DNA from: Macrostomum lignano
Taxonomy: Eukaryota
Length of the DNA stretch: 31,340 bases
NCBI GenBank assembly: GCA_002269645.1
Contig: NIVC01002654.1
Location: 121,371 to 152,710 of the forward strand
Reading direction: 5' to 3'
Below, piece after piece: positions 1,344 to 28,838 of this stretch. The translations under genes and the position numbers were made by a program. Each line of letters begins with the position of its first letter. Within the stretch, counting starts at the first letter, position 1. The notes under the pieces were generated by a model that saw only the letters and a list, made by a program, of their open reading frames with translations, was not told the DNA's origin and did not search any database.

Positions 1344-3767
1344 ATGCCTAAAATGCCGCGTCAGCAATCGTCGTCCTCTGAGGACTCATCATCCGAAGAT
1401 GAGAAAGTGAAAAAGCCAACAACCCCTGGAGGCAAAGTGATCCCGAGTCCCAGCAAGACTGGATCAGCTGCAAAAAAACCACAGAAGCGTCCTGTGCCTG
1501 CCGAATCATCAAGCGATTCTGATTCTGATTCGTCTGACGCTAAGCCGCCAGTCAAAAAGGCTGCGCCTGTCAAGCCCGTTGGTAAGAAGGTAGTGGCTGA
1601 GGACTCATCAACCGACTCGTCTTCTGAGAACGAGAAGCCACCAGCCAAGAAGCCAGCTGCTGCCACTCCTGCAGCCAAGCCAGCTGCTGCCACTCCTGCA
1701 GCCAAGACACCCAAAAAGACACCGGTAAAAAAGCAGGAGTCGTCGTCAAGCGACTCGTCTTCTGAGGACGAGAAGCCACCAGCCAAGAAGCCAGCTGCTG
1801 CCACTCCTCCAGCCAAGACACCTAAAAAGACACCGGTAAAAAAGCAGGAGTCGTCATCAAGCGACTCGTCTTCTGAGGACGAGAAGCCACCAGCCAAGAA
1901 GCCAGCTGCTGCAACTCCTCCAGCCAAGACACCCAAAAAGACACCGGTAAAAAAGCAGGAGTCGTCATCAAGCGACTCGTCTTCTGAGGACGAGAAGCCA
2001 CCAGCCAAGAAGCCAGCTGCTGCTACTCCTGCAGCTGCAGCCAAGCCAGTCACAAAAACACCGGCAAAGAAGCAGGAGTCGTCATCAAGCGACTCGTCTT
2101 CTGAGGACGAGAAGCCACCAGCCAAGAAGCCAGCTGCTGCTACTCCTGCAGCTGCAGCCAAGCCAGTCACAAAAACACCGGCAAAGAAGCAGGAGTCGTC
2201 ATCAAGCGACTCGTCTTCTGAGGACGAGAAGCCACCAGCCAAGAAGCCAGCTGCTGCTACTCCTGCAGCCAAGCCAGCTGCTGCCACTCCTGCAGCCAAG
2301 ACACCCAAAAAGACACCGGTAAAAAAGCAGGAGTCGTCGTCAAGCGACTCGTCTTCTGAGGACGAGAAGCCACCAGCCAAGAAGCCAGCTGCTGCCACTC
2401 CTCCAGCCAAGCCAGCCACAAAGACACCGGTAAAGAAAAAGGAGTCGTCATCAAGCGACTCTTCTTCTGAGGATGAGAAGCCAACAGCTAAGAAAGTAGC
2501 TCCTGCTGCTGCCACTCCTGCAGCCAAGACACCCAAAAAGACACCAGTAAAGAAGCAAGATTCTTCATCCAGTGATTCTTCGGATGATGAACAGCCGCCA
2601 CCAAAAAAGATCGCCCTTACTAACAACGCCAATAAAAAGTCGCCCGTGTCAGAAAAGCTGCCAAACGGAAAGCATATTGTGCCAAAAGCGACGCATTGCC
2701 TTCTGCTAAGCAATCTGGATCCTTCCATCACTCGAAAGGACCTGTCCAACTTTTTGGACGACAAAGACATTGCTCGTCTTGACGCAGGTTTAGTCAGTGC
2801 TCCGATTGCAATGATCTGCTTTGAAAGTAAATCTGATGCAGATGCTGCGGCCTCTAAGTGCCAAAATGCGTCTCTAAAGAATCGACAGTTCAGCATTAAC
2901 ACTTTGTCCGGACCGGTGGATCATCTCCAAGTACTACTTGGAGACGGTGCACCGAAGGTTTCAGCTCCAATGACGAATGACTTTTCTCAGAAAGACAAAT
3001 CTCGCGAAGAACTGCGCGGACAGGCTCGCTCTGTTATTTTGCTAAATGTGCCTGCCGATGCAGAGGAATCAGATGTGCGCGCTGCTTTTCCAGGGGGTTC
3101 TCGCTACAATGTTAAGACTCGTCCCGGTTCTGACACAGGCGTCTGCTTTGTGGATTTTGATTCAGAGGCTGACTGCTCTGCCGGTTTTGACGAATTCCGC
3201 GGCGTTGGACAATTCGGCGGTCGCGAGGTTGCTGTCGCCTTCGTTGCGCCAAGGCCGGAAAGGAAGTCATTTGGTGGCGGTGGCGGGGGCGGTCCTGGTT
3301 CAGATAATCCTCCGTCAAAAACTGTTGGCGTGTTTAATCTTCCGTACAGTGCCACTGTCGAACAGTTGTGGGAGTATTTCCCTAAAGCACAAGATCTGTT
3401 TATTCCTAAAGGCGATGATGGCCGCAGCCGCGGATTTGCTTTCGTCACGTTTGACTCGATTGATAGCGCCAGCGAGGCTGTCAACGCTGGACTGACTCTG
3501 GACGGTCGGCAGACCCGGATCGAGTATCGCGAAGATCGCAGTGGAGGCGGACGTGGCGGTGGCCGTGGCGGCGGCCGCGGTGGATTTGGCGGTGGCCGTG
3601 GTGGCTTTGACAGTGGGCGTGGCGGTGGCCGAGGTGGCGGCTTTGGCGGTGGTCGTGGCGGTCGTGGTGGAGGCCGCGGTGGACGTGGAGGCTTTGGCGC
3701 TCCCAAGCCTCGCATAGAGATCGATACAGCCAAGCAGAGCCGCAAGTTGGATTCTGACTCGGATTAA
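1344..3767 (+). CDS. NCL: Nucleolin-like nucleolar RNA-binding protein, single uninterrupted 807-aa ORF. N-terminal acidic Ser/Asp/Glu clusters alternate with basic K/P/A/T repeats. Three RRM-like domains follow (RNP1-like RGFAFVTF in the last), then a C-terminal Gly/Arg-rich (RGG/GAR) domain.
   Basis: Direct reading of the translation gives the repeat EDEKPPAKKPAAATPAAKTPKKTPVKKQESSSSDSSS about 9 times. RRM-like blocks include KTVGVFNLPYSATVEQLWEYF...RGFAFVTFDS. The tail is (GGGRGG)n. This matches the known nucleolin/NSR1 domain order. The antisense 513-aa ORF is a repeat artefact. Confidence 0.8.
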   Translation: MPKMPRQQSSSSEDSSSEDEKVKKPTTPGGKVIPSPSKTGSAAKKPQKRPVPAESSSDSDSDSSDAKPPVKKAAPVKPVGKKVVAEDSSTDSSSENEKPPAKKPAAATPAAKPAAATPAAKTPKKTPVKKQESSSSDSSSEDEKPPAKKPAAATPPAKTPKKTPVKKQESSSSDSSSEDEKPPAKKPAAATPPAKTPKKTPVKKQESSSSDSSSEDEKPPAKKPAAATPAAAAKPVTKTPAKKQESSSSDSSSEDEKPPAKKPAAATPAAAAKPVTKTPAKKQESSSSDSSSEDEKPPAKKPAAATPAAKPAAATPAAKTPKKTPVKKQESSSSDSSSEDEKPPAKKPAAATPPAKPATKTPVKKKESSSSDSSSEDEKPTAKKVAPAAATPAAKTPKKTPVKKQDSSSSDSSDDEQPPPKKIALTNNANKKSPVSEKLPNGKHIVPKATHCLLLSNLDPSITRKDLSNFLDDKDIARLDAGLVSAPIAMICFESKSDADAAASKCQNASLKNRQFSINTLSGPVDHLQVLLGDGAPKVSAPMTNDFSQKDKSREELRGQARSVILLNVPADAEESDVRAAFPGGSRYNVKTRPGSDTGVCFVDFDSEADCSAGFDEFRGVGQFGGREVAVAFVAPRPERKSFGGGGGGGPGSDNPPSKTVGVFNLPYSATVEQLWEYFPKAQDLFIPKGDDGRSRGFAFVTFDSIDSASEAVNAGLTLDGRQTRIEYREDRSGGGRGGGRGGGRGGFGGGRGGFDSGRGGGRGGGFGGGRGGRGGGRGGRGGFGAPKPRIEIDTAKQSRKLDSDSD
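1630..2560 (+). repeat. In-frame coding tandem repeat inside the nucleolin-like gene, with units of 111, 117 and 138 bp and about 8-9 copies, many identical to the base.
   Basis: The motif cgactcgtcttctgaggacgag recurs at 1751, 1862, 1973, 2090, 2207 and 2345, giving spacings of 111, 111, 117, 117 and 138. Confidence 0.85.
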
Positions 3768-9521: not shown

Positions 9522-10317
9522 ATTCAAATATAGGAGCCCATAGTCTCCGGGGGTGGGGGCGAGTCTCAAGAAAATCCATATCCAGCTAATATAAAGACCT
9601 GCTATGGGTGCGCCTACATTCAATTTGAGCGATAAAGAAGAAATGGCGGATAGGCACTTTTGCTAATCTCCTCCCCCTTTTTCTCTGTCCTCTCCTGGCA
9701 TACGCGAATGAGTGCGCGCGTATCTCCACGGATCGTCGACAGTCCGCACTCCCCCAGCCCTTCAACTGCGAAGGCGAACGATATACGATTGACTGTGTAG
9801 CCAAATTATCCCTCCCCTGATCTCTGTGTGTCGCCGGGTCTGCCCTAGCACTCGCCGACTGTACGCTTGGCGTCCCCTAAACTCTGCTGTTCCCCGTCCC
9901 CCCGCTCTGTATCTGTCTTGTTTCTAGCCACCAACCCTCACTTTGATATTCAACAGGCAGGCTTGGAGAAAGAAAACAGTTCTTTTGCAAAGATATCCCT
10001 TGCCAATTCGCTTCCCCCTAGCCCGAGTCGGGGAGAGGCAATCAATTCTAGTCCCTCTCTCTCACTGGGGAGGGCTGACACCAACCCCGGCCGGCAGGAA
10101 AAATTTCCCAATCTAGGCTACTCCGGCTGAGCGCGCAGCGGGACGGGGGTCGACGGAGCGTCTCAATTCCTGGACACAGCCGTCTTCTCTGGTGAGAACG
10201 GAGCGGAGAGCCTTGAATAGAAATAGCCAAGACAGTTTCAGCACTTGTTCTCAGCACAGCATTCCGATACTAAAGAAGAAATAACTCAGGTGAGAACCGT
10301 TTTCCCTATCTCTAACC

Positions 10318-10580
10318 GGATAGAAATGGCACTCATCCTGTTAGATAGGCAATGCCATCATCCAATGGAAGTGGCACTCATCCTGTTAGATAGGCAATGA
10401 CATCATCCAATGGAAGTGGCGCTCATCCTGTTAGATAGACAATAGCATCATCCAATGGAAGTGGCACTCATCCTGTTAGATAGGCAATGCCATCATCGAA
10501 TGGAAGTGGCACTCATCCTGGTAGATAGACAATGGCATCATCCAAAGGAAGTGGCGCTTATCCTGCTAGACAAAAGCAGA
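10318..10580. repeat. 45-bp minisatellite with about 5.5 copies and the unit ggaagtggcactcatcctgttagataggcaatgccatcatccaat. It ends about 15 bp before the KCNMB-like start codon.
   Basis: The motif actcatcctg recurs at 10331, 10376 and 10422, giving a 45-bp period. Confidence 0.9.
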
Positions 10581-10595
10581 TAATGCAATCAATGT

Positions 10596-11033
10596 ATGGA
10601 TCTCTATCACTATTTGCAGAGCCGAGAAGCAATCTCCGCACTGATGGCTCTGGAGCCTCACGGTGTGTGCCACACACTGTGCATAAAATGGAGCGTTGCC
10701 AAGATCATCTATCTCCTATCCGGCTCGCTAATTGTATGCGGCTTCACCGTGGAGATGATTGTCATCGGCATGATAGTGGCGCCCTACCTCAGGGAGGCCG
10801 AGTTCGTGGAGGCCAGTTGCCAGTTTAACTCCAGTCGGTATACCGGCTACACAGACTGCCAAGATGTGAATAGAAAGCCAAATAACAACTTCCCTTGTCT
10901 AGAGGTGCTGGTCAACTTTTTCCCCCACAGTTCCAGTAAATTGCCAGTAAATTCCAGTAAATTGTTCGGAGGCGGAGTGGCCACCATCTACTCCGTGCTG
11001 TCGTACTATGAGGAGTCTTCTAGTACGTCAAAG
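10596..11033 (+). CDS. Exon 1 of KCNMB-like paralog 1 (BK-channel beta-subunit-like two-TM protein). It has a short N-terminus, TM1 (IIYLLSGSLIVCGFTVEMIVIGMIV) and a Cys-containing extracellular loop. It ends at the donor AAG|gtgagc, phase 0.
   Basis: The motif PYLREAEFVEASCQFNS resembles the PALQDLQATEANCTVLS region of vertebrate KCNMB4 as I recall it. The donor GTGAGC immediately follows the last in-frame codon before the stop. An internal Met 17 codons downstream of the start (MALEPHG...) is an alternative start. Confidence 0.6.
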
Positions 11034-12860: not shown

Positions 12861-13003
12861 AGATGTGCAACCGACAGCTCAGCCGCAGCAATTGCGCGGC
12901 GCATCTGAAGGCTGCCCTATACGGCTGTTCAGTCCGGGGGTCGCCACACCCTCAATTACCTTAGCTAATGCTTTTATGCATTTTACATCTGGGTGAACTA
13001 AAG
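12861..13003 (-). mobile_element. Truncated copy, 3' body only, of the same SINE family as 16274..16546 and 18450..18699. It ends exactly where the foldback element begins.
   Basis: The sequence agatgtgcaaccgacagctcagccgcagcaattgcgcggcgcatctgaaggctg... aligns with the other two copies. Homology stops at gggtgaactaaagg|ggtacc. Confidence 0.5.
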
Positions 13004-14352
13004 GGGTACCTCTCATTTCGCCGATTCTCGTTTCGCCGAATCTCATTTTGCAGATTCTCGTTTCGCCGAATCTCATTTTGCAGATTCTCGTTTCGCCGAC
13101 ATTATCATTTCGCCGATTCTCGTTTCGCCGAAATTAATTTCATAACCATCTGGACATTAGACCATAGACAACTACACTAATGCCAAGTGTGATTTGGATG
13201 TCTATGGCTTGAAAAAGAAAGTTAAAATTAAGAATTCTTCCTTCTGCATAATCCATGGTAAAAAGTCTATAGCCAGTGGTATATATGTATGGTATAGGAG
13301 GTTGTGAAATACAAAAATGCCGATTGAAATCGTTTCTGTTGGCTTTTCTGGTGAAATAAATAAGTGGTTTTATTGCATTGACTTCTGAATTGAATGAGTT
13401 AAAACTACGCTCGTAATGCTGGTAAGCTAACGAAATTAAGCTGCAAAAAGGCTACGATACTAGCGCAATATTACTATAGCTTTTTGCAGCCCATTTGGGC
13501 TTACGCGCATTGAATTTAATCCAAGATGTTTGTCAAAGTAACGGAGCTTTTGTCTATGGTAGCAAGGCTGGCACAGCGGCATTTAATTTGGTCCAACAAG
13601 CATCAATTTGGTCCATTTAGTTCATTTGCAGCTCAGTCCCAGAATTGTGGACCATATGCTAGGCTGTTGAACGAATGTCATTGGCTTGTGATCGAAGCAC
13701 TCGACGGAGGTGAACACCCAAAGGACATTGCAAGGTTGCTGAATGTAAAAGAAAAGGTGGTTTACAACATCCAGCAGCGCCTTGAAACTCTGCCGGCAGA
13801 GATTGCCTGCGAAAGGGTGGCAATCGCCAAGGAAAGTTGCTCGAGAGCCTCAGGTCAACTGCTACTCGATGCAGTGGAGACGAACCCTTTGTTGACGTTG
13901 CCGAAATGCAGCAGAAGTTGAGGGAACAGCTCCAGTTGGTTATCAGATTTTGACTATCAGCAGAGCTCTGAAAAAGCAACTGAAAATTGCTGGTAGAGAC
14001 GCTGACATTCCAGCGGTGCGCAACAACCTGCAGACAGTTGAGAGAAGGCAAGAGTGTCCAATGGCTCACGAGTGTTTGGACCAAATTGATGCTTGTTGGA
14101 CCAAATTAAATGCCGCTGCGCCAGCCTTGCTACCATAGACAAAAGCTCTGTTACATTGGCAAACGTATCTTGGATTAAATTAAATGCGCGTAAGCCCAAA
14201 TGGGCTGCAAAATGCTATATTACATTACTTTATTTTTCAAGCCATAGACATCTAAATCACATTTGCATTAGTGTAGTTGTCTATGGTCTAATGTCCAGAT
14301 GGTTATTAAATTAATTTCGGCGAAACGAGAATCGGCGAAATGAGAGGTACCC
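13004..14352. mobile_element. Foldback-like DNA transposon of about 1.35 kb with GGTACC-containing termini. The outer terminal inverted repeats (TIRs) are 13004-13217 and 14231-14352. The left TIR carries a 34-bp subterminal tandem expansion. The inner inverted repeats of about 145 bp are 13475-13617 and 14087-14230. A roughly 240-bp left-side insertion lies between the left outer and inner repeats. The unique core carries an ORF.
   Basis: The reverse complement of 14087-14352 matches 13004-13030, then 13150-13217, then 13475-13617 by eye. The 34-bp unit cgccgattctcgtttcgccgaatctcattttgcagatt is repeated in the left arm only. Confidence 0.55.
13526..13921 (+). CDS. ORF remnant in the foldback element core, with a helix-turn-helix-like segment (ECHWLVIEALDGGEHPKDIARLLNVKEKVVYNIQQRL) reminiscent of the Tc1/mariner or pipsqueak-type transposase N-terminal DNA-binding domain. 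Probably non-functional.
   Basis: It has the residue pattern R..IV....G.....IA..L.V....V..I..R. Its first 30 codons lie inside the inverted repeat and are mirrored by minus ORF 13957..14199. At 131 aa it is too short for a transposase. Confidence 0.2.
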   Translation: MFVKVTELLSMVARLAQRHLIWSNKHQFGPFSSFAAQSQNCGPYARLLNECHWLVIEALDGGEHPKDIARLLNVKEKVVYNIQQRLETLPAEIACERVAIAKESCSRASGQLLLDAVETNPLLTLPKCSRS

Positions 14353-15877
14353 GAATTGGATAGATAATAAAGGTGAAAAGCAGTCACGTGTTTAAATTTT
14401 TACATTGGTATGCCACTGGAATAATGTGGCTAAAACTATTGTCTGGGTCAATTAAAGTATAATTACGTGTACAAACGTAATTCATTCATCGACTCTAATT
14501 GTTTTAGGCGTTGGTTTGATTATTAAAAGATTTTGAATCACCCTTATCATCTTATCTCGACTCGGCCCTCTGCGCGCATAATGAATGTACATCAATACTC
14601 ACTGCCCAAGTAACCAATCAGTTCACCCAAGCCATTTCTCTCGTCCAATCAAATTCAATCGGTCACATTATCTACGAGTATAAGCTTCGGCAATCAAACA
14701 ATCATATTATCGTACTACTTCGATAATTGAGTACGATACCCACGCACCCTATGAGATTATCCACACATGGAGATCTCACCTCAGAGATGACCCAGTCTTT
14801 TATATAGAATATCTTTAGGTGGGGACCTTATTTAGGATTTTCTAAGTGCCATTCTAAGTGAAAAAATGCCAAATATCAATTTTTTTCGTTGGTCTCTCAT
14901 ATTAAACTGAAAAAAAGTCTACGCGCGTATAGTTAAAAAAGTTACTCAGTTTTTTGCGCTAACAATTGAACAATAAATTAAAGCTATTTATTGTATAAAA
15001 GTGGGTTGCAGAGGCAATAGCCGTGATTTATAGCGTCGACGCACAGCTGCCGCACCGCAATATTTTCTCTCAAAATCGTTGCTTTGGGAAAAAGAAAAAA
15101 ATTGAGCAAAAATATGGGAAAAATGAGGGAATCCGCTGGCCGCTTCGTAAAAGTACAAATGTCAGAGCTCTGCAACTCCCACCCTAGCAAAGGAACGAAT
15201 AAGGTAGGAGACTGAGATCGGCTGATGGAAATGAAATGCCTCCTGGGACCTGGGGCAGAGCGAGAGGTGCGGCAGAGATTGCCTCAACATCTCATTTCCG
15301 ATTGCCAAATAACCAAATAAAAGAGAGGCAGTGGGTTCAGTGGAGCGCTGCCCCCCCCTCTCCAACTCTGCACAGCCTCCCGCGGCTGCCGATCCCAGAT
15401 TCCCAATCACACCGCCATCAAATGAGGACATCAGTCGCGTGATTCGATAGCTCTATTGATGGTTGTGTGTAAGAGCCTCAAGCCTGTCAATCAAGCCTGT
15501 AACACGGAATGTAACAGCCTCGAACCTGTAACACAAGCTTAGATACGGTACATTGTAAATACTGTAAAGCACTGTAAGATACTGTAAAACACTGTAAAAC
15601 AAAATCGGACTCTCAAAGACCGAATATCCTAATTTTTGGCCAACCATTCCTCGTAAGAGGCACTCAAACGGATTGAGTCAACCAGAGGGTCGCCAGCACA
15701 GTAAAGTTAAGCATAGTTGGCCGCGGTTAGTGCATCAGTCAAAATGGCTTTCATTCTTCCATCAGAAACAAAGCGTCCCTTCTTACTTCTTTATTCATCC
15801 TGACTGGGTAAGCAATAACCTATTCTTTGTAAACTAAGCTAAAAACGTTCTCAATATTTTAGCCAGGCAAAACTCTC

Positions 15878-16213: not shown

Positions 16214-16273
16214 GTAAGAACTGTGGTCTAGATAATTTTATTTTGCTGGAGCCGGTGCAACATTTTGATAGAA

Positions 16274-16546
16274 GATGTGCAACCGACAGCTCAGCCGCAG
16301 CTATTGCGCGGCGCATCTGAAGGCTGCGTACGGCTGTTCAGTCGAAGGATTGGGGGGTCGCCAACCACACCATCAATTACCCCAGCTAATGCTGGCACCC
16401 ATTTTACAGCTGGTTGAACTGAAGCAATGCAGAGTTAAATGTACATGTATTTCTCAAGGACACAAATTTTGGCGAGTGGATCGAGAATCGAACCCCCGAC
16501 CTTTCATTCGCGAGTCCGACGCTCTAACCACTAGGCTACAACCCCA
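16274..16546 (-). mobile_element. tRNA-derived SINE, full-length copy in minus orientation, inside the intron of KCNMB-like paralog 2. Its head resembles tRNA-Arg. The central region GTCCTTGAG..ACATTTAACTCTGCATTGCTTC.GTTCAACCAGCTGTAAA.TGGGTGCCAGC is conserved between copies.
   Basis: The minus strand reads GGGGTTGTAGCCTAGTGGTTAGAGCGTCGGACTCGCGAATGAAAGGTCGGGGGTTCGATTC.... The D-arm and anticodon segment resemble GCGTCTGACTTCGGATCAGAAG of tRNA-Arg(TCG). The body is shared with the copies at 18450 and 12861. Confidence 0.6.
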
Positions 16547-18449: not shown

Positions 18450-18699
18450 GTTGTAGCCTAGATGGGGATGTAGCCTCACGTCGGGGGTTCGATTCCCGAT
18501 CCTACTGGAACAATATGTGTCCTTGAGCAAGACATTTAACTCTGCATTGCTTCGGTTCAACCAGCTGTAAATGGGTGCCAGCATTAGCTGGGGTAATTGA
18601 GGCTGTGTGTGGCGACCCCCAGTCCTTGGACTGAACAGCCGTACGCAGCCTTCAGATTCACCGCGCAATAGCTGCGGCTGAGCTGTCGGTTGCACATCT
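18450..18699 (+). mobile_element. Second copy of the SINE family, plus orientation and inverted relative to the copy at 16274. The head is rearranged: GTTGTAGCCTAG is partly duplicated and the D-arm and anticodon segment is deleted.
   Basis: GTTGTAGCCTAGATGGGGATGTAGCCTCACGTCGGGGGTTCGATTCCCGATCC is followed by a body collinear with the reverse complement of 16274-16546, ending ggttgcacatct. Confidence 0.55.
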
Positions 18700-18948: not shown

Positions 18949-19085
18949 GCTCAACTCCAGGTGAGGGACTCAGGACCTGCTCAACTCCAGGTGACGGACT
19001 CAGGACCTGCTCAACTCCAGGTGAGGGACTCAGGACCTGCTCAACTCCATCCAGGTGAGGGACTCAGGACTCAGGACCTGCTCAC
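18949..19085 (+). repeat. Short array of about 4.5 copies of the 30-bp satellite ctgctcaactccaggtgagggactcaggac. The terminal unit supplies the GTGAGC donor of the putative exon at 19086.
   Basis: Direct reading shows the same family as 19900-20510 and 22231-23215. Confidence 0.9.
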
Positions 19086-19899: not shown

Positions 19900-20510
19900 G
19901 GTTGAGCAGATCCTGAGTCTCTCACCTGCAGTTGAGCAGGTCCTGAGTCGCTCATCTGCAGTTGAGCAGATCCTGAGTCTCTCACCTGCAGTTGAGCAGG
20001 TCCTGAGTCGCTCATCTGCAGTTGAGCAGATCCTGAGTCTCTCACCTGCAGTTGAGCAGGTCCTGAGTCCCGCATCTGGAGTTGAGAAGGTCCTGAGTCG
20101 CTCATCTGCAGTTGAGCAGATCCTGAGTCTCTCACCTGCAGTTGAGCAGGTCCTGAGTCGCTCATCTGCAGTTGAGAAGGTCCTGAGTCGCTCATCTGCA
20201 GTTGAGCAGATCCTGAGTCCCGCATCTGGAGTTGAGAAGGTCCTAAGTCCCTCATCTGGAGTTGAGAAGGTCCTAAGTCCCTCATCCGGAGTTGAGAAGG
20301 TCCTAAGTCCCTCATCCGGAGTTGAGAAGGTCCTGAGTCCCTCATCCGGAGTTGAGAAGGTCCTGAGTCCCTCATCCGGAGTTGAGAAGGTCCTGAGTCC
20401 CTCATCCGGAGTTGAGAAGGTCCTGAGTCCCTCATCCGGAGTTGAGAAGGTCCTAAGTCCCTCATCTGGAGTTGAGAAGGTCCTGAGTCCCTCATCCGGA
20501 GTTGAGCAGG
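19900..20510 (-). repeat. 30-bp satellite array of about 20 copies in reverse orientation, unit ctcacctgcagttgagcaggtcctgagtcg, with ordered subvariants.
   Basis: Direct reading. The reverse complement equals the unit of 22231-23215. The 263-aa ORF over it is a periodicity artefact. Confidence 0.9.
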
Positions 20511-20680: not shown

Positions 20681-21159
20681 AAGAGTTGACAAAAAGAAAG
20701 TTGCTGTGTCTATAGATACCTTTGTGACTACTGGTTGAACTAGGGCAGTCTATGTTTTCAAAAATGTGAAGCATTAAAATGACTCTGAATTTTTAAAAGT
20801 AATAGAACAAAACTGATACAAACTTTTCTGACAACAACGGAGGCAGTTAATTTTATAAGCATTGTCGATTTCAAAACGGAATATATTTAATAAATAACAA
20901 TTTTTATTTAGACGCTCAACTCCGATAACATGCGGGCTGGAGGTGCTTCATCTCAAACAGAAAAAAAACGGTGCGTCCATTCTCTTTCAAAGAATTCAAA
21001 AAACACCTTATAGTGCACAGTCTAACAAAAATTTACAACGCACAGAGGCAATGTTATGAGAAATGAGTGGAGCAGGATGAACTGTTTCTTAGGAAAAGCA
21101 ACGGCTTAAAGGATAACACCCTGGCAGTACTGCCGTGGACAGCGAAAGTATAAGGGTGC

Positions 21160-21355
21160 CTGCACTGAGCATCTCACCCTGCACTGAGCATCTCACCCTG
21201 CACTGAGTATCTCACCCTGCACTGAGCATCTCACCCTGCACTGAGCATCTCACCCTGCACTGAGCATCTCACCCTGCACTGAGTATCTCACCCTGCACTG
21301 AGTATCTCACCCTGCAATGAGTATCTCACCCTGCAATGAGTATCTCACCCTGCGC
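21160..21355. repeat. 21-bp minisatellite of about 9-10 copies, unit ctgcactgagcatctcaccct, with gagc/gagt/aatg variants.
   Basis: Direct reading. Confidence 0.85.
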
Positions 21356-21626
21356 TGAGAAAGTTATTGCGCTGAAAATAGAAAAAAATTGTATTTCAAA
21401 AGCGATGAATCGATGGTAATGTTTCGGGTGTTGCGTCCTTCTGCTTTGGTTGTCCGCGAGTTGCTACTGCTAATAAAATTCATAAGTAGTATACATATTT
21501 ACTATAAGAATAATTAGAGCTAAACTTTACAGTTATAAAGATCCGGCCACCAGCTGCCACCTCGCATGTGACTTTACTCGCATTGCATATGCTCATTCAA
21601 AAATGTCCACAGGCCATAGCAACGGG

Positions 21627-22230: not shown

Positions 22231-23215
22231 GTTCCCGGTTAAGGACTCAGGATCTGCCCGAATTCAGATGAAGGCCTCAGGATCTGCTCAACTGCAGGTA
22301 AGAGACTCAGGATCTGCTCAACTGCATGTGAGGGACTCAGGACCTGCTCAGCTCCCGGTGAGGGACTCAGGACCTACTCAACTGCGGGTGAGGAACTCAG
22401 GATCTGCTCAAATTCAGGTGAGGGACTCAGGATCTGCTCAACTTCAGATGAGGAACTCAGGATCTGCTCAACTGCAGGTGAGGGACTCAGGACCTGCTCA
22501 ACTGCATGTGAGGGACTCAGGACCTGCTCAACTTCAGATGAGGAACTCAGGATCTGCTCAACTGCAGGTGAGGGACTCAGGACCTACTCAACTGCGGGTG
22601 AGGAACTCGGGATCTGCTCAAATTCAGGTGAGGGACTCAGGATCTGCTCAACTTCAGATGAGGAACTCAGGATCTGCTCAACTGCAGGTGAGGGACTCAG
22701 GACCTGCTCAACTGCATGTGAGGGACTCAGGACCTGCTCAACTTCAGATGAGGAACTCAGGATCTGCTCAACTGCATGTGAGGGACTCAGGACCTACTCA
22801 ACTGCGGGTGAGGAACTCAGGATCTGCTCAAATTCAGGTGAGGGACTCAGGATCTGCTCAACTTCAGATGAGGAACTCAGGATCTGCTCAACTGCAGGTG
22901 AGGGACTCAGGACCTGCTCAACTGCATGTGAGGGACTCAGGACCTGCTCAACTTCAGATGAGGAACTCAGGATCTGCTCAACTGCAGGTGAGGGACTCAG
23001 GACCTGCTCAACTGCGGGTGAGGGACTCAGGACCTGCTCAACTGCATGTGAGGGACTCAGGACCTGCTCAGCTCCCCGGTAAGAGACTCAGGATCTGCTC
23101 AACTGCGGGTGAGGGACTCAGGACCTGCTCAACTGCATGTGAGGGACTCAGGACCTGCTCAGCTCCCCGGTAAGAGACTCAGGATCTGCTCAACTCCCGG
23201 TGAGAGACTCAGGCT
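22231..23215 (+). repeat. 30-bp satellite array of about 32 copies, plus orientation, unit ctgctcaactgcaggtgagggactcaggac, with a higher-order pattern of variants. It lies in the Islet intron between the homeodomain and C-terminal exons.
   Basis: Direct reading. The 301-aa RDSGPAQLQV ORF is a periodicity artefact. Confidence 0.9.
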
Positions 23216-23809
23216 GCACTCCCGCACACTGAAAGCAGGTGCACTAGCCGGTCGCTGCGCAATTGTTGGTGGTGGAGTCAAAATTCGGGGGGGGGGCAAT
23301 AATAGTGAGGGCTTGGGCGAGCGTAACTAGAAAAAGATTAGCGACCGCGTCTCTTGGTCTCTTCCGGCACTGCCAGGGGTCTTGTTTGGTCAGGCCTTGC
23401 CAAACGCCTCCTTCCGCCGTCGCCCCCCCCCTCAAATCAGCCCGGCTGCTGCGGTTTCTGGGATCTGCTGCGACCCCCCCCCCCTCGGGCTAGTGGGTGG
23501 ACTCAAACAAGCTGGCTGGGGAACACGGCATAGAATCCCATTATTCAGCTATTTCAGTCGGCCAGGTGTTTACGCAGCTGAGATCTCATCCTCAGGGGGG
23601 CGTGGAGCTGCACTGTGGATTTCTGCTGCTTCTGGTTCGGCAACCTCGGGGTGGACAATTTCACTGCACCTAAGCCGACCTGCACACTGCTTGTCACTCT
23701 GTCTGTCTGCCAGTACGTAAATCAATTTTTAACTGCTATTTGGTTTTGCTATTGACGTCTCATTTCTATTAAGTTGTTCTCAGAGGAGAGTTTCCCGCCA
23801 TTAGAAAGG

Positions 23810-24300
23810 AATGAATGAATAGAATGGATTGCTAATCTAGCCAACATCACGGATGCAGGAATAGAATGGATTGCTAATCTAGCCAACATCACGGATGCAG
23901 GAATAGAATGGATTGCTAATCTAGCCAACATCACGGATGCAGGAATAGAATGGATTGCTAATCTAGCCAACATCACGGATGCAGGAATAGAATGGATTGC
24001 TAATCTAGCCAACATCACGGATGCAGGAATAGAATGGATTGCTAATCTAGCCAACATCACGGATGCAGGAATGGAATGGATTGCTAATCTAGCCAACATC
24101 ACGGATGCAGGAATAGAATGGATTGCTAATCTAGCTAACATCACGGATGCAGGAATAGAATGGATTGCTAATCTAGCCAACATCACGGATGCAGGAATGG
24201 AATGGATTGCTAATCTAGCCAACATCACGGATGCAGGAATAGAATGGATTGCTAATCTAGCCAACATCACGGATGCAGGAATAGAATGGATTTGCTAATC
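23810..24300. repeat. 42-bp minisatellite of about 11.5 copies, unit gaatagaatggattgctaatctagccaacatcacggatgcag. It lies in an Islet intron and ends 50 bp from the homeodomain exon donor.
   Basis: Direct reading. Units are nearly identical. Confidence 0.9.
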
Positions 24301-24351
24301 TGTCTTATAAATAATGAACAAAAAAGATTACCTTCTGATAGACATCCTCAC

Positions 24352-24731
24352 CTTCTGCTGCTGGTGCTCCATCTGTTTCATGAGCAGCTGTTTCTTCTTG
24401 TCCTTGCACCGCTTGTTCTGAAACCAGACCCTGATGACTCGCGGGCTCAGGCCGGTCATCTCCACCAGCTGCTCCTTCATCAGCGCGTCCGGCCGAGGAT
24501 TGGCCGCGTAGCAGGTGCGCAGCGTGTGCAGCTGCTTCTCGTTCAGCACCGTCCGGACTCGGGTCGCTTTGCTGCTGTCCTTGCCGCCGCCGCCGCCGCC
24601 GCCACAGACGGTTTTTCCGCGCTTCCCTCCGCCTGCGGCGGCGCCACTTGAAGCGCCGGTTCCACTGCCGACACCGTTGGACACAGCAGGCTCCGACGCC
24701 GTTGACTGACTCGCTGAATCCTCGTCGTTGC
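24352..24731 (-). CDS. ISL: Islet LIM-homeobox gene, homeodomain exon. It follows the acceptor aacctgataaacag|, starts in phase 1 with 2 bases, and ends at the donor CAGAAG|gtgagg, phase 0. It encodes ...[72 protein letters not shown]
   Basis: The homeodomain is identical over about 57 residues to vertebrate ISL1 ([57 protein letters not shown]) as I recall it. The ORF-track Met at 24684 is actually a GTG. Confidence 0.9.
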
Positions 24732-25145
24732 CTGTTTATCAGGTTAAGGGAGCGAGTCGTACGTTTCCCCAAATCAGGAGCATCTTGCATCATTTGCCGT
24801 CTTGTTCGCCAACAATATGTATTAAGCCCGAAAGGAAATGGCGCCCAGCTACCGGTCTGAGGGAATTTCGAATAGAAAAATCATTGTCCGCCCGCCAATA
24901 CGAGGCCTCCGAGATCGCGTCCTGTCCTGTCTTGTCTTGTCTTGGCTTGTCTTGGCCTGTCCACCTTAATCCCTCGCTGGTGGGCTGGCACAGAAGCAGC
25001 AACAGCAGCACAGCAAGAGAAGGCAGCAGTTGGAGCAGCAGACGCCGCCACGGCCGCCGCCACCAAGTCCCGCCAGCAGACGAGGAGTCTCCTCCATCCC
25101 CCGTCTCCCCAGCAGAAAGTGGATGCCTAAAAGTATTAAAGAAAG

Positions 25146-25163
25146 AACACACACACACACAAA
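25146..25163. repeat. (AC)n microsatellite.
   Basis: acacacacacacacaaac. Confidence 0.8.
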
Positions 25164-25579
25164 CAGGCACGCACGACTAAACGTCTAGTCTTGCTTTTCT
25201 GTATGTCGTCTGATCCTTTAGACTGTGGGGTGGGTGGGTGGTCCTGTCAGGCCCTTGGGGTGGGGCTCTTGCTAGGGCACGAATGGGGGTCCCGACTGCC
25301 TGGCCCCCTGCTACAAAGAAGCCCATTAATCACCCCGGGAAGTCCGCCTTTTTCAAGCCGGGGCGAAACGACGGTGCAGAGGATAACCTGCCCGGTCCAT
25401 CCCCACACTGCTTTCCCAGATCCCACTTGTCAGTCAGGCAGTAAAGGCCAAATGTTCATGTAGGCATGACAATGGCCTGCTTTATCAACTGGACATTGGA
25501 GGTAGCTGAACCACCTGAATGCGCTCGGCAGCACAACTGAGAATTTTCAGAAATTTCACTGAGATTAAGGTTTCTTTAA

Positions 25580-26338
25580 CACAATCTGCGGACACAATCT
25601 AGGCAAATCTGCAGACACAATCTTGACATAGCTGGAGACACAATCTTGACATAGCTGGAGACACAATCTTGACAAATCTGCAGACACAATCTCGGCAAAT
25701 CTGCAGACACAATCTCGGCAAATCTGCAGACACAATCTAGGCAAATCTGCAGGCACAATCTCGGCAAATCTGCAGACACAATCTTGACAAATCTGCAGAC
25801 ACAATCTCGGCAAATCTGCAGACACAATCTCGGCAAATCTGCAGGCACAATCTCGGCAAATCTGCAGACACAATCTTGACAAATCTGCAGACACAATCTC
25901 GGCAAATCTGCAGACACAATCTTGACAAATCTGCAGACACAATCTTGACAAATCTGCAGACACAATCTTGACAAATCTGCAGACACAATCTTGACAAATC
26001 TGCAGACACAATCTCGGCAAATCTGCAGACACAATCTTGACAAATCTGCAGACACAATCTAGGCAAATCTGCAGGCACAATCTCGGCAAATCTGCAGACA
26101 CAATCTCGGCAAATCTGCAGACACAATCTAGGCAAATCTGCAGACAATCTCGGCAAATCTGCAGACACAATCTAGGCAAATCTGCAGGCACAATCTCGGC
26201 AAATCTGCAGACACAATCTCGGCAAATCTGCAGACACAATCTTGACAAATCTGCAGACACAATCTCGGCATATCTGCAGACACAATCTCGGCAAATCTGC
26301 AGACACAATCTTGACAAATCTGCAGACACAATCTCGAC
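25580..26338. repeat. 23-bp minisatellite of about 32 copies, unit caaatctgcagacacaatctcgg, with cttgac/ctaggc/ctcggc variants. It lies in the Islet intron between the LIM2 and homeodomain exons.
   Basis: Direct reading. The minus-strand ORFs rich in RLCLQICRDCVC are artefacts because 3 x 23 = 69. Confidence 0.9.
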
Positions 26339-26992
26339 ACAGCCACAGACACAAGCTTAGCACAAGTCACAGACACAAGCTTAGCACAAGCCACAGACAC
26401 AAGTTTAGCACAAGTCACAGACACAAGCTTAGCACAAGTCACAGACACAAGCTTAGCACAAGTCACAGACAAGTTTAGCACAAGTCACAGACACAAGCTT
26501 AGCACAAGCCACAGACACAAGTTTAGCACAAGTCACAGACACAAGCTTAGCACAAGTCACAGACACAAGCTTAGCACAAGTCACAGACACAAGCTTAGCA
26601 CAAGTCACAGACAAGTTTAGCACAAGCCACAGACACAAGTTTAGCACAAGTCACAGACACAAGCTTAGCACAAGTCACAGACACAAGCTTAGCACAAGTC
26701 ACAGACAAGTTTAGCACAAGTCACAGACACAAGCTTAGCACAAGTCACAGACAAGTTTAGCACAAGCCACAGACACAAGTTTAGCACAAGTCACAGACAC
26801 AAGCTTAGCACAAGTCACAGACAAGTTTAGCACAAGCCACAGACACAAGTTTAGCACAAGTCACAGACACAAGCTTAGCACAAGCCACAGACACAAGTTT
26901 AGCACAAGTCACAGACACAAGCTTAGCACAAGTCAGAGACAAGTTTAGCACAAGCCACAGACACAAGTTTAGCACAAGCCACAGACACAAGC
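26339..26992. repeat. 24-bp minisatellite of about 27 copies, unit acacaagcttagcacaagtcacag, with 21-bp deletion variants. It is directly contiguous with the 23-bp array and shares the CAGACACAA core.
   Basis: Direct reading. The +-strand ORF translating to repeated HRHKLSTS is an artefact. Confidence 0.9.
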
Positions 26993-27570
26993 TCAGAAGT
27001 CTCAATGCACCCCATATGCCAATATTCTATGATTGAGACCATCGAGCTTTTGCAGTCAAATTGAAATAGGAATCCTAGCGCCGACTATTCGCTATCGCAA
27101 TCCTGTTTGAACTGCAAAAGCCAGCGCTGAATCTCAGTCCAGACCTCCTCAGGATCGTGACTAAACCGCGATTTCAAAGTGACGGCCGTGCTCTAGCCAA
27201 AAATGAAATTGGAAAGTTTTATAAAGTCAAGTTGGGGATATAAAATATTGGGATTTAGATTGGCGTGGTGGGGGGGGGGATAATCTCGACGCGAGTGGCT
27301 CTCGGCAGATGCCAGATATAAACCCGGGACTTCACAAATTATCTGCCCATAAGAGGCTCTTCATGCTGATGCAATTATCAAACACTTCTCTTATCAAATT
27401 GATGGGAAGCGATGAGAACCTTCTGTTTTGGCAGTTTACCCTCAAATTGCATCTGCAGGGCCTACTTGATGTTGGCTGACAGTTTCAGGTCAATAAAATT
27501 CAATTTTCACCTATTGATAGATGAAGCTGTCAAATTGAAACCATCATTTTGTTGTCAATCTGCTGTCTGC

Positions 27571-27935
27571 TATCAACCTGAAGCTATCAACCTGAAGCTA
27601 TCAACCTGAAGCTATCAACCTGAAGCTATCAACCTGAAGCTATCAACCTGAAGCTATCAACCTGAAGCTATCAACCTGAAGCTATCAACCTGAAGCTATC
27701 AACCTGAAGCTATCAACCTGAAGCTATCAACCTGAAGCTATCAACCTGAAGCTATCAACCTGAAGCTATCAACCTGAAGCTATCAACCTGAAGCTATCAA
27801 CCTGAAGCTATCAACCTGAAGCTATCAACCTGAAGCTATCAACCTGAAGCTATCAACCTGAAGCTATCAACCTGAAGCTATCAACCTGAAGCTATCAACC
27901 TGAAGCTATCAACCTGAAGCTATCAACCTGAAGCT
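27571..27935. repeat. 14-bp tandem repeat of about 26 near-perfect copies, unit tatcaacctgaagc.
   Basis: Direct reading. Confidence 0.9.
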
Positions 27936-28165
27936 AGCCTGAAACTAGCAACCTGAAGCTAACCTGAAACTAAAACCTGAAGCTAGCCTGAAACTGTCAA
28001 CCTGAAGCTAGCCTGAAACTGTCAACCTGAAGCTAGCCTGAAACTGTCAACCTGAAGCTAGCCTGAAACTGTCAACCTAAAGCTAGCCTGAAACTGTCAA
28101 CCTGAAGCTAGCCTGAAACTGTCAACCTGAAGCTAGCCTGAAACTGTCAACCTGAAGCTAGCAAC
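27936..28165. repeat. 25-bp minisatellite of about 8 copies, unit gaagctagcctgaaactgtcaacct. It is derived from and contiguous with the 14-bp unit.
   Basis: Direct reading. Confidence 0.85.
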
Positions 28166-28216
28166 TGTACATTCTTCATCTGTACTGTCACAAGCCCAGC
28201 GGAGCCAATTGCTCAC

Positions 28217-28554
28217 ACTCCATACCCGGGTGCAGCTGGTTCACCCCGCTGCTGCCAATGCTGTCGCCCGGGCTGCCAACGCCGACAATGTGCGACGGCG
28301 GCTGCTGTTGCGGCGACCTCTGCGTTGTCGACGACGCGTCGACGAAATCTCCAGTGAGCAGCGCGTCAAAGTCGGCCCGACAGTAGATGCCGCCGTCGTC
28401 GCGTCTAACGCCGAATTCTTCGCCTGGAACCAGCTGCCTCGCGCAGGCCTGGCAGCGGAAGCAGGTCACGTGATAGAGCCGGGACTGGGCGCGCATCACC
28501 GGCTCGGACTTGACCAGGGCGACGCTGCACTTGGCGCACCGGCTGCCGAACAGC
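28217..28554 (-). CDS. ISL: Islet LIM-homeobox gene, LIM2 exon. It follows the acceptor ctctcacctctccag|, phase 2, and encodes (R)LFGSRCAKCSVALVKSEPVMRAQSRLYHVTCFRCQACARQLVPGEEFGVRRDDGGIYCRADFDALL... The donor is either GAGT|gtgagc, giving a 3' end of 28217, or CCGG|gtatgg, giving 28226. Both are phase 1 and compatible with the homeodomain exon.
   Basis: Matches the ISL1 LIM2 region [63 protein letters not shown] as I recall it. Exon phase arithmetic was checked by hand. The 207-aa ORF 28188..28811 contains it, and its upstream part is minisatellite. Confidence 0.8.
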
Positions 28555-28614
28555 CTGGAGAGGTGAGAGCGAGGCGAGCGGTTTGAGTGAGGGGAGAGGG
28601 TAGGCAAAGGGAAT

Positions 28615-28838
28615 GGAGATGATGCAGAGGAGAGGGCGGAGATGATGCAGAGGAGAGGGCGGAGATGATGCAGAGGAGAGGGCGGAGATGATGCAGAGGA
28701 GAGGGCGGAGATGATGCAGAGGAGAGGGCGGAGATGATGCAGAGGAGAGGGCGGAGATGATGCATCGGAGAGGTCGGAGATGATGCGGAGGAGAGGTCGG
28801 AGATGATGCATCGGAGAGGTCGGAGATGATGCGGAGGA
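28615..28838. repeat. 23-bp minisatellite of about 9.5 copies, unit ggagatgatgcagaggagagggc. It starts about 60 bp upstream, in the intron, of the Islet LIM2 exon acceptor.
   Basis: gatgcagagg at 28621 and 28644 give a 23-bp period. Confidence 0.9.

What the first reader, a model, noticed from the sequence alone, without database searches (positions are those of the whole stretch)
12861..14352. Foldback-like DNA transposon with nested inverted repeats and an asymmetric subterminal tandem expansion, inserted next to a truncated SINE
Outer inverted repeats of about 120-210 bp and inner inverted repeats of about 145 bp flank a roughly 470-bp core whose ORF has a Tc1/pipsqueak-like helix-turn-helix motif but no catalytic domain. 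It is a probable non-autonomous deletion derivative. The left arm alone carries an extra 34-bp tandem unit and a roughly 240-bp insertion. The element's terminus abuts the break-point of a truncated SINE copy, so it probably inserted into a pre-existing SINE. That gives a relative age order of SINE first, then foldback element.
Basis: seen in the sequence. Interest (0 to 1): 0.5.

Follow-up and report, generated by a model that had tools for sequence, protein, structure and literature searches.

The report
Two nested cut-and-paste transposon relics
The hairpin-like structure is real, but it is best read as two ordinary DNA transposon relics, one inserted inside the other, in a repeat-rich, probably flatworm genome, and not as a single foldback element.

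Summary
The inverted repeats, core ORF, left-arm tandem expansion and abutting SINE fragment are all present at the stated coordinates and far exceed chance.

The "nested inverted repeats" are best explained as two unrelated elements.

- **Inner element (13479-14215, 737 bp).** It is flanked by TA on both sides. Its 137-139-nt terminal inverted repeats (TIRs) align end to end with the TIRs of intact 1.6-kb elements on metagenome contigs. Those elements encode IS630/Tc1/mariner-type (Pfam DDE_3) transposases and are flanked by TA.
- **Shared terminal features.** The inner element shares their terminus TA|GCATTTTGCAG. It also shares a 15-nt motif repeated at fixed positions in each TIR, an IR/DR-like layout.
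- **Core.** It retains only a decayed copy of the transposase's N-terminal DNA-binding domain (about aa 20-161). The catalytic domain is deleted.
- **Other copies.** Three Macrostomum lignano proteins derive from other copies of this element.
- **Outer element (13004-13478 plus 14218-14352, about 610 bp).** It is MITE-like, with about 126-nt arms that begin with 15-nt tandem units (8 on the left, 2 on the right). The "240-bp left-arm insertion" is its own interior. Its superfamily is unknown, because a palindromic junction hides the target duplication.

The claim that the element split a pre-existing SINE is not supported, because the missing SINE half is not on the far side. This is an ordinary finding: a new member of a known kind.

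The parts
12861..13003 (-). SINE fragment. It is the 3' 152 nt of a 273-nt SINE and lacks the tRNA-like head.
   Evidence: It aligns to 16273-16424 of the full copy with score 197 and 81% identity (E=1e-38). The similarity ends at 13003.
13004..13222 (+). Left arm of the outer MITE-like element. If the target duplication is TA, the arm starts at 13009.
   Evidence: It forms inverted repeats with 14227-14352 (pairs I2, I4, I5). The unique part is 113/118 identical.
13011..13132 (+). Terminal tandem array of the outer left arm. The unit is 15 nt, TCTCRTTTCGCCGAW, in 7.9 copies (4 x 30 nt).
   Evidence: Tandem Repeats Finder gives score 191 for period 30. The right arm has only 1.9 units, at 14317-14345.
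13223..13476 (+). Unique interior of the outer element.
   Evidence: It has no partner in the right arm, no other copy in the window and no protein match in six frames.
13477..13478 (.). TA flank of the inner element on the left. It is the inferred target-site duplication.
   Evidence: The sequence reads ..ATTACTA TA|GCTTTTTGCAG. Autonomous relatives carry TA at the same position.
13479..13615 (+). Left TIR of the inner non-autonomous IS630/Tc1/mariner-type element.
   Evidence: It is 131/139 identical to the right TIR. It aligns end to end with the 151-nt TIR of the 1638-bp autonomous element in L002, z=10 against shuffles.
13508..13522 (+). Outer copy of the 15-nt motif CAWTNAATTTRRTCC in the left TIR, at +30 from the terminus. 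It is a putative transposase-binding repeat.
   Evidence: The window has 4 matches, all inside the inner TIRs, against 0.09 expected. L002 has a motif copy at the same +30 position.
13580..13594 (+). Inner copy of the 15-nt motif in the left TIR, at +102. A one-base-shorter copy follows at 13600-13613.
13526..13921 (+). The 131-aa ORF. Its first 30 codons lie in the left TIR. The rest is the first helix-turn-helix and part of the second, and it ends where the ancestral frame is lost.
   Evidence: ORF list. Pfam HTH_29 at E=1.1e-4, below the cutoff. Another M. lignano copy, P0001, is 94.5% identical over 110 aa.
13640..14054 (+). Decayed remnant of the transposase N-terminal (paired-like) DNA-binding domain, with at least one frameshift.
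   Evidence: In tblastn, transposase residues about 20-106 match 13640-13900 in frame 2. Residues about 125-161 match 13953-14054 in frame 3. Nothing matches beyond residue about 165. phmmer of P0001 against P0003 gives E=5.9e-10.
14077..14215 (-). Right TIR of the inner element. It holds motif copies at 14098-14112 and 14172-14186.
   Evidence: Its terminus GCATTTTGCAG is identical to that of the 1619-bp autonomous element in L008/L009.
14216..14217 (.). TA flank of the inner element on the right.
   Evidence: The sequence reads CTGCAAAATGC|TA TATTAC.
14218..14226 (+). The last 9 nt of the outer element's interior, to the right of the insertion site.
   Evidence: It lies between the inner TA flank and the start of the outer right arm.
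14227..14352 (-). Right arm of the outer MITE-like element. If the target duplication is TA, the arm ends at 14347.
   Evidence: Inverted-repeat pairs I2, I4 and I5. BLAST E=2e-49.

Best explanation
The region holds two cut-and-paste DNA transposon relics, one nested inside the other.

**1. The outer element came first (inferred from the nesting).**
- It is an about 610-bp non-coding, MITE-like element: 13004-13478 joined to 14218-14352.
- It has about 126-nt terminal inverted repeats whose tips are 15-nt tandem units. It landed 0-5 nt from the 5' end of a SINE fragment.
- The array in the left arm has since grown, or the one in the right arm has shrunk, by three 30-nt doublets. Replication slippage or unequal exchange is the likely cause.

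**2. The inner element inserted later.**
- It is a 737-bp non-autonomous member of the IS630/Tc1/mariner superfamily (13479-14215).
- It inserted at a TA in a TA-rich site, 9 nt from the inner edge of the outer element's right arm, and duplicated the TA.

**3. What the inner element is.**
- It is an internal-deletion derivative of an about 1.6-kb autonomous element.
- It keeps both about 138-nt TIRs. Each TIR carries the family terminus GCWTTTTGCAG and copies of a 15-nt motif at +30 and +102, an IR/DR-like layout.
[quoted passage not shown] It lacks the whole DDE catalytic domain.

**4. How it moves (inferred).**
- It could move only if a family transposase supplied in trans bound the repeated motifs, paired the ends and cut at the TA|GC junctions.
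- The 131-aa ORF is most likely a pseudogene fragment.

**5. Consequence for the finding.**
- The inner element sits close to one arm of a palindromic host element. The two pairs of inverted repeats therefore look like one foldback with an asymmetric insertion.

**Shown versus inferred**
- Shown: the repeats, the homology of the TIRs and the DNA-binding domain to autonomous elements, the TA flanks, and the absence of a catalytic domain.
- Inferred: the order of events, mobility of the outer element, and binding of transposase to the motif.
For: **Inner TIRs match those of autonomous elements**
- They align over their full length with the 151-nt TIR of the 1638-bp element in L002/L004. Alignment scores are 42 and 52, against a shuffle mean of 6 (z=10 and 13).
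- That element encodes P0003/P0008/P0014 (378 aa). P0003 hits Pfam HTH_29, HTH_32 and DDE_3 (7e-20). It also hits the NCBIfam IS630 family model at 136.6 bits, above the curated cutoff of 100.

**Termini and flanks**
- Five different left flanks and two right flanks of that element end in TA next to GCATTT.
- A second relative, the 1619-bp element in L008/L009 encoding P0019, has the terminus TA|GCATTTTGCAG. This is identical to the window's right inner terminus.
- In the window the inner repeats are bounded by TA at 13477-78 and 14216-17.

**Repeated motif**
- CAWTNAATTTRRTCC occurs 4 times in the 31-kb window, all in the inner TIRs at mirror positions, against 0.09 expected.
- It occurs 6 times in L002, also only in the TIRs, with one copy at the same +30 position.

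**Coding remnant**
- tblastn shows that only transposase residues about 20-161 are represented, in two frames.
- The alignment places the break just before the first catalytic aspartate motif, YVDETGF.

**Outer arms are unrelated**
- They show no similarity to the inner TIR or to the L002 TIR (z=0.05 and -0.14).

**Other copies**
- Other copies of the inner element exist in Macrostomum lignano at three levels of divergence: P0001/PAA62401.1 at 94%, P0004/PAA72754.1 at 86% and P0002/A0A1I8IMR6 at 69% amino-acid identity.

**Known range**
- Long TIRs with two binding repeats per end are a known Tc1/mariner layout (PMC5224488). TIR lengths up to 1.9 kb are reported for the superfamily (PMC10379824).
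Against: - No second copy of the outer element, and no copy of the inner element in a different DNA context from the same genome, could be inspected. Independence of the two parts rests on homology to termini seen in other organisms and on the lack of similarity between the two repeat pairs.
- The TA flanks lie in a TA-rich, partly palindromic stretch (TACTATA|GC ... GC|TATATTA). The exact boundary is therefore uncertain by 2 nt, and a TA on both sides is not very improbable by itself.
- The arms of the inner element (131/139 identical) are no more similar to each other than those of the outer element (113/118). Arm divergence therefore does not independently show that the inner element is younger.
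- No full-length transposase of this family was found among M. lignano proteins, so a source of transposase in this genome is undemonstrated.
- The closest autonomous relatives share only 32-39% amino-acid identity in the DNA-binding domain.
Confidence: 0.8

Rival explanations
1. It is a single foldback-like element with one long (about 276-nt) inverted repeat. The left arm later acquired a 249-nt insertion and extra tandem units, and the unit transposes by its outermost ends.
For: The right arm is nearly continuous: only 4-9 nt separate the outer and inner repeat segments. The whole element folds into one long hairpin. The arm tips are tandem repeats with unequal copy number, as in foldback elements.
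Against: - The boundary between the "outer" and "inner" segments coincides exactly with the TA|GCATTTTGCAG terminus of autonomous relatives. The inner segment alone matches their complete TIR.
- The outer segment has no counterpart in those relatives and no similarity to the inner segment.
- The 249-nt block has no TIRs or target duplication of its own and no other copy in the window.
- No 9-bp direct repeat flanks the whole element.
Confidence: 0.08
2. The origin is nested, but the composite is now a single mobile unit. Alternatively the outer arms are not a transposon at all, but a local inverted duplication formed around the inner element, for example by hairpin-primed repair.
For: The outer termini are intact and 93-98% complementary. 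No independent copy of the outer element was found in any searchable resource.
Against: - The resources searched do not include the source genome, so absence of copies means little.
- A repair-generated palindrome would be symmetric around the inner element. Here 254 nt lie on one side and 9 nt on the other.
- 15-nt terminal tandem units and sharp ends of complementarity at 13004 and 14352 are typical of TIR elements.
Confidence: 0.07
3. This is the sub-claim on age order. A full-length SINE was present first and was split by insertion of the (outer) element.
For: SINE similarity stops at 13003, within 0-5 nt of the outer terminus. The fragment is the only one of three SINE copies in the window that lacks the head entirely.
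Against: - The missing about 121 nt, which include the tRNA-like head, are not on the other side of the element. The best alignment of 14345-14800 to the SINE scores 32 on the plus strand and 22 on the minus strand, against 197 for the left fragment.
- They are not elsewhere near the element either.
- A cut-and-paste insertion separates the two halves of its target without deleting one.
- SINE copies truncated at the 5' end during retrotransposition are common (general knowledge). A fragment that was already truncated, or that arrived later, fits equally well.
Confidence: 0.2

Closest known systems
IR/DR-type Tc1-like elements (Sleeping Beauty, Tdr1, Bari3) and their internally deleted derivatives
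   Same: - TA target duplication.
- Long TIRs, about 138-151 nt here against about 230 nt in Sleeping Beauty, with repeated putative binding motifs near the outer and inner ends of each TIR.
- A transposase with an N-terminal bipartite paired-like helix-turn-helix domain followed by a DDE domain.
- Non-autonomous copies arise by internal deletion (PMC5224488).
   Different: - The related transposases score best with the IS630/DDE_3 models, and phmmer finds no match to any solved Tc1/mariner structure.
- Motif-based spacing between the second D and the E is 33 residues, not 34.
- The motif and TIR sequences are unrelated to those of Sleeping Beauty.
- Transposase binding to the motif is untested.
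Bacterial IS630 family and eukaryotic IS630-like Tc1/mariner lineages
   Same: The autonomous relative P0003 exceeds the curated NCBIfam IS630 cutoff (136.6 bits against 100). It also has a TA duplication and the conserved PPYSPFLNPVE block.
   Different: - The named relatives come from eukaryotes: Macrostomum, the brittle star Amphiura, and the fungi Mucor and Rhizopus.
- The TIRs are about 150 nt, far longer than the short IS630 ends (general knowledge).
- The window copy has no transposase gene.
Drosophila Foldback (FB) elements and foldback-like elements
   Same: Inverted repeats take up most of the length (888 of 1349 nt). The arm tips are made of short tandem units whose number differs between arms. 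The single strand folds into a long hairpin.
   Different: - Only the terminal 29-121 nt are tandem repeats, not most of each arm.
- The repeats fall into two unrelated pairs, and the inner pair has its own TA flanks.
- There is no 9-bp target duplication.
- The core derives from an IS630/Tc1/mariner transposase.
MITEs with long TIRs (for the outer element)
   Same: It is small (about 610 bp), non-coding and bounded by about 126-nt TIRs with sharp ends.
   Different: Copy number and target duplication could not be established. The junction palindrome GGGTACCC allows TA, GTAC or GGTACC as the duplication. No superfamily can be assigned.

Membership tests
IS630/Tc1/mariner superfamily (inner element 13479-14215) | TA target-site duplication | tested here: met
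   TA lies at 13477-78 and 14216-17, directly outside the TIRs. Autonomous relatives show TA at seven sequenced junctions. Caveat: this is a single copy in a TA-rich context, so the boundary is uncertain by 2 nt.
IS630/Tc1/mariner superfamily (inner element 13479-14215) | TIRs homologous to those of an element that encodes a DDE/D transposase of the superfamily | tested here: met
   The inner TIRs align end to end with the L002 TIR (z=10-13). They share an 11-nt terminus with L008. Those elements encode DDE_3/IS630-type proteins.
IS630/Tc1/mariner superfamily (inner element 13479-14215) | [quoted passage not shown] | tested here: met
   phmmer of P0001 (another copy) against the full transposase P0003 gives E=5.9e-10 in a library of 1.84 billion proteins. 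tblastn places transposase residues 20-161 at 13640-14054. The Pfam HTH_29 match alone is below the cutoff.
IS630/Tc1/mariner superfamily (inner element 13479-14215) | DDE/D catalytic domain (required for an autonomous member) | tested here: not met
   Nothing in the element matches transposase residues beyond about 165. The copy is therefore non-autonomous. This does not exclude membership as a deletion derivative.
IR/DR subgroup of Tc1-like elements | Two transposase-binding direct repeats per long TIR | tested here: inconclusive
   Two or three copies of a 15-nt motif lie in each TIR at conserved positions. Binding was not tested. The related transposases are IS630-like and not in the Sleeping Beauty clade.
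Foldback (FB) elements | Arms composed largely of tandem subrepeats | tested here: not met
   Tandem units occupy 121 of 612 nt of the left arm and 29 of 276 nt of the right arm.
Foldback (FB) elements | One continuous pair of inverted repeats bounded by a 9-bp target duplication | tested here: not met
   There are two unrelated repeat pairs, and the inner pair has its own TA flanks. No 9-bp direct repeat lies at 13004 and 14352.
MITE (outer element) | Small size, TIRs and no coding capacity | tested here: met
   It is about 610 bp with about 126-nt TIRs. A six-frame translation has no protein match among 5.8 billion sequences.
MITE (outer element) | Many dispersed copies with a consistent target-site duplication | not testable with these tools
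   No eukaryotic genome collection is searchable. The window has no other copy, and the metagenome scan with the terminal 31-mer gave 0 hits. The junction palindrome makes the duplication ambiguous.
tRNA-derived SINE (fragment 12861-13003) | tRNA-like head with pol III A and B boxes, plus multiple dispersed copies | tested here: inconclusive
   There are three copies in the window. By eye, the full copy has a tRNA-like head on the minus strand (GGGGTTGTAGCCTAGTGGTTAG...GGTTCGATTCTCGATCC). However, ARAGORN and Rfam report no tRNA. The fragment next to the element lacks the head.

The most novel reading that the evidence does not exclude
Two versions remain open.

1. The composite has become a functional unit in its own right: a lineage-specific foldback-like element. 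On this reading a Tc1/mariner-type MITE captured inside a palindromic MITE now moves by the outer ends.
2. The TIR-to-TIR ORF, which encodes only the DNA-binding domain, makes a truncated transposase that regulates the family. It is intact over 203 aa in another M. lignano copy, P0001.
Probability: 0.07. Interest if true: 0.4.

Novelty: new member of a known kind. Interest (0 to 1): 0.2.

Why it matters
The main value is for annotation.

- An apparent exotic foldback element dissolves into two ordinary TIR transposons. This matters for repeat libraries of very repeat-rich flatworm genomes, where nested insertions can be mistaken for new element types.
- The work defines the ends, the TA flanks, the putative binding motif and the autonomous relatives of an IS630-like Tc1/mariner family. 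No named family could be assigned with these tools, and no repeat database such as Repbase or Dfam was available to check whether it has been described.
- At least one Macrostomum lignano gene model, the UniProt entry A0A1I8IMR6 (a PDZ-domain protein), contains a copy of this element.

No new biology is implied.

Tried and rejected
- **One long inverted repeat with a left-arm insertion.** I considered this first, because a global alignment of the arms fits it. I dropped it once the inner boundary proved to be a family-typical transposon terminus.
- **SINE continuing on the right flank.** Local alignments on both strands, and of the reconstructed empty site, show no continuation.
- **Other copies of either element in the window.** None were found.
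- **Termini in public collections.** The outer 31-mer and an inner 22-mer each gave 0 hits in JGI metagenome contigs (one search was a server failure). These collections are not expected to hold flatworm DNA, so this says little.
- **Six-frame translation of the outer element against 5.8 billion proteins.** No hit.
- **Exact look-ups to locate the source contig or other copies.** Nothing is on record for the window ORFs or for P0001, P0002 and P0004. The species is therefore inferred only from near-identical transposon-derived proteins of Macrostomum lignano.
- **Rfam and ARAGORN on the window and on the SINE head.** No tRNA or other RNA family was found.
- **Sequence search of P0003 against solved structures.** No match.
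- **Possible right-end-like fragment at 13415-13454 in the outer element's interior.** It is not significant: 45 of 500 shuffles score as high.
- **Literature search for a named "DD33E" family.** Nothing useful.
Full report

Yes. The repeat finder, BLAST and a global alignment reproduce the structure.
- The outer arms are 13004-13222 and 14227-14352. The unique part is 113/118 identical (E=2e-49).
- The inner arms are 13472-13615 and 14077-14222, 93.8% identical over 146 nt (E=1e-59).
- The core between them, 13616-14076, is 461 bp.
- As single-stranded DNA the 1349 nt fold into one long interrupted hairpin, MFE -388.7 kcal/mol.
- The 131-aa ORF is at 13526-13921.

Two details need correcting.
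- The tandem unit is 15 nt (30 nt as a doublet), not 34 nt.
- The left arm has 7.9 units against 1.9 on the right, so it carries about 90 extra nt.

The left-only block is 13223-13471.

The sequence left of the element (12861-13003) matches the first 152 of 273 nt of a repeat.
- The full copy of that repeat lies at 16273-16545, and a third copy at about 18455-18699.
- The match ends at 13003, one base before the element.

**2. What the core is**

The ORF alone gives only a sub-threshold Pfam HTH_29 match (E=1e-4 to 1.7e-5; 25.2 bits against a cutoff of 28.1).

A frameshift-corrected translation found one close relative among 5.8 billion proteins.
- It is the Macrostomum lignano hypothetical protein PAA62401.1 (P0001, 203 aa).
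- P0001 begins and ends in residues encoded by the inner repeats, so it is another copy of the same element.

An exhaustive HMMER search with P0001 found further relatives.
- Two more M. lignano copies turned up: P0004/PAA72754.1, and a copy embedded in the gene model A0A1I8IMR6 (P0002).
- It also found P0003 at E=5.9e-10, a 378-aa protein from a metagenome contig.

P0003 is a complete transposase.
- It hits Pfam HTH_29, HTH_32 and DDE_3 (7e-20).
- It hits the NCBIfam IS630 family model at 136.6 bits, above the curated cutoff of 100.

A profile search found about 35 relatives.
- They are 330-400 aa long, nearly all on 1.3-2.5-kb metagenome or read-assembly contigs.
- A few carry names from a brittle star and from Mucorales fungi.
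- None is a full-length protein from M. lignano.

tblastn of these proteins against the window shows what survives.
- Residues about 20-106 match 13640-13900 in frame 2.
- Residues about 125-161 match 13953-14054 in frame 3.
- Nothing matches beyond residue about 165.

The alignment places the break just before the first catalytic motif, YVDETGF.

**3. Why I read it as two elements and not one**

The contigs that encode P0003, P0008 and P0014 (L001-L006) hold a 1638-bp element with 151-nt TIRs.
- Five different left flanks and two right flanks diverge immediately outside TA|GCATTTCCC....
- The window's inner repeats, taken from 13479 and from 14215, align with that TIR over its whole length. 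Alignment scores are 42 and 52 against a shuffle mean of 6 (z=10 and 13).

A second, more distant autonomous relative is the 1619-bp element in L008/L009, which encodes P0019.
- It starts TA|GCATTTTGCAG.
- This is identical to the window's right inner terminus.

In the window the inner repeats are bounded by TA at 13477-78 and 14216-17.

A 15-nt motif, CAWTNAATTTRRTCC, supports the same reading.
- It occurs four times in the 31-kb window, against 0.09 expected.
- All four copies are in the inner repeats, at +30 and +102 from each terminus.
- L002 has six copies, all in its TIRs, and one is at the same +30 position.
- Two binding repeats per long TIR is the layout known as IR/DR in a subgroup of Tc1/mariner elements (PMC5224488). 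Long TIRs are within the known range of the superfamily (PMC10379824).

The inner part (13479-14215, 737 bp) is therefore a complete non-autonomous transposon by itself. In contrast, the outer arms show no similarity to the inner TIR or to the L002 TIR (z about 0).

The simplest account is a nested insertion.
- The host is an older, about 610-bp MITE-like element (13004-13478 plus 14218-14352). It has about 126-nt TIRs and 15-nt terminal tandem units.
- It received the 737-bp element at a TA 9 nt from the inner edge of its right arm.
- The "240-bp insertion in the left arm" is simply the interior of the outer element.
- The near-continuity of the right arm is a consequence of where the insertion happened to land.

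**4. The outer element**

It has no coding capacity and no detectable relatives.
- The six-frame protein search found nothing.
- The window has no other copy.
- The metagenome scan found nothing.

Its junctions read ..AAAG GGGTACC TCTC.. and ..GAGA GGTACCC GAAT.. . The palindrome can be read as a TA, GTAC or GGTACC duplication, so the superfamily cannot be assigned from one copy. That it is mobile is inferred from its sharp TIR ends and its terminal tandem units.

**5. The SINE claim**

- The fragment is the 3' part of a SINE lying on the minus strand. The head-bearing 121 nt are missing.
- They are not found to the right of the element, where alignment scores are 32 and 22 against 197 for the left fragment. 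They are not found elsewhere nearby either.
- A cut-and-paste insertion would leave both halves of its target in place.
- The data therefore do not show that the element split a SINE. A fragment that was already 5'-truncated, or a later event, fits as well.
- The only age order that can be read from this locus is outer element before inner element.

**6. Source organism**

- Exact look-ups of window ORFs found nothing.
- The only near-identical relatives of the inner element are M. lignano proteins, with 94% amino-acid identity to P0001.
- The window is therefore probably from Macrostomum lignano or a close relative. This is an inference from transposon copies only.

**7. Comparison with known families**

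- The inner element works like an internally deleted Tc1/mariner element with IR/DR-type ends. It meets the testable membership criteria of the IS630/Tc1/mariner superfamily: TA flanks, TIR homology to autonomous DDE_3 elements, and a remnant of the paired-like domain.
- It lacks the catalytic domain, which makes it non-autonomous.
- By motif positions, the related transposases have 33 residues between the second D and the E. This was not checked against a structure.
- I could not assign them to a named family.
- The structure fails the defining features of Foldback elements. The arms are mostly unique sequence, there are two unrelated repeat pairs, and there is no 9-bp duplication.

**8. Verdict**

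It is partly wrong on the single foldback element and on the SINE-first order. The locus shows ordinary nested transposon insertions. It is a new member of a known kind and of low interest beyond repeat annotation.

Noticed in passing
window 18949-19070, 19901-20510 and 22243-23213: A 30-nt minisatellite occurs as large arrays in opposite orientation. There are 20 units at 19901-20510 and 32 units at 22243-23213, about 85% complementary and about 1.7 kb apart. A 4-unit array lies at 18949-19070. Structurally this is closer to a foldback (arms made of tandem repeats) than the finding itself.
   Followed up: no
window 23727-31340: This stretch is almost continuous minisatellite DNA. The array periods are 42, 23, 24/70/94, 14, 23 and 33 nt, and the last array (57.8 units or more) runs off the end of the window. 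There are also a 19-nt array at 21159-21359 and a 45-nt array at 10275-10615.
   Followed up: no
window 1344-3767 (+): An 807-aa ORF has eight acidic Ser/Asp/Glu-rich repeats of 111-138 nt, one RRM domain (Pfam RRM_1, 1.3e-18) and a Gly/Arg-rich tail. It looks like a nucleolin-like RNA-binding protein gene.
   Followed up: partly
window 16273-16545 (-), about 18455-18699 (+) and 12861-13003 (-): A 273-nt SINE-like repeat has three copies. The full copy lies just after an apparent exon/intron boundary (..gagccg|gtaaga at about 16214). The second copy has a deletion within the head. ARAGORN and Rfam do not call the head a tRNA.
   Followed up: partly
window 13415-13454: Within the outer element's interior, the stretch ..AATGCTGGTAAGCTAACGAAATTAAGCTGCAAAAAGGCTA resembles the last 36 nt of the inner element's right TIR in the same orientation. 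It could be a trace of an earlier insertion, but 45 of 500 shuffles score as high.
   Followed up: yes
P0002 (UniProt A0A1I8IMR6, Macrostomum lignano), residues about 268-403: A predicted PDZ-domain protein contains a diverged copy of the inner element, TIR-encoded residues included, inside its coding sequence. This is probably a gene-model artefact or an exonised transposon.
   Followed up: partly
L001-L006 (1638-bp element), L008 and L009 (1619-bp element): Intact autonomous relatives with open 361-378-aa transposase genes assemble almost identically in several ENA metagenome samples (ERZ27309172-ERZ27309373 and ERZ28655790), with different flanks. This suggests a recently active family in an unidentified eukaryote present in those samples.
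   Followed up: partly
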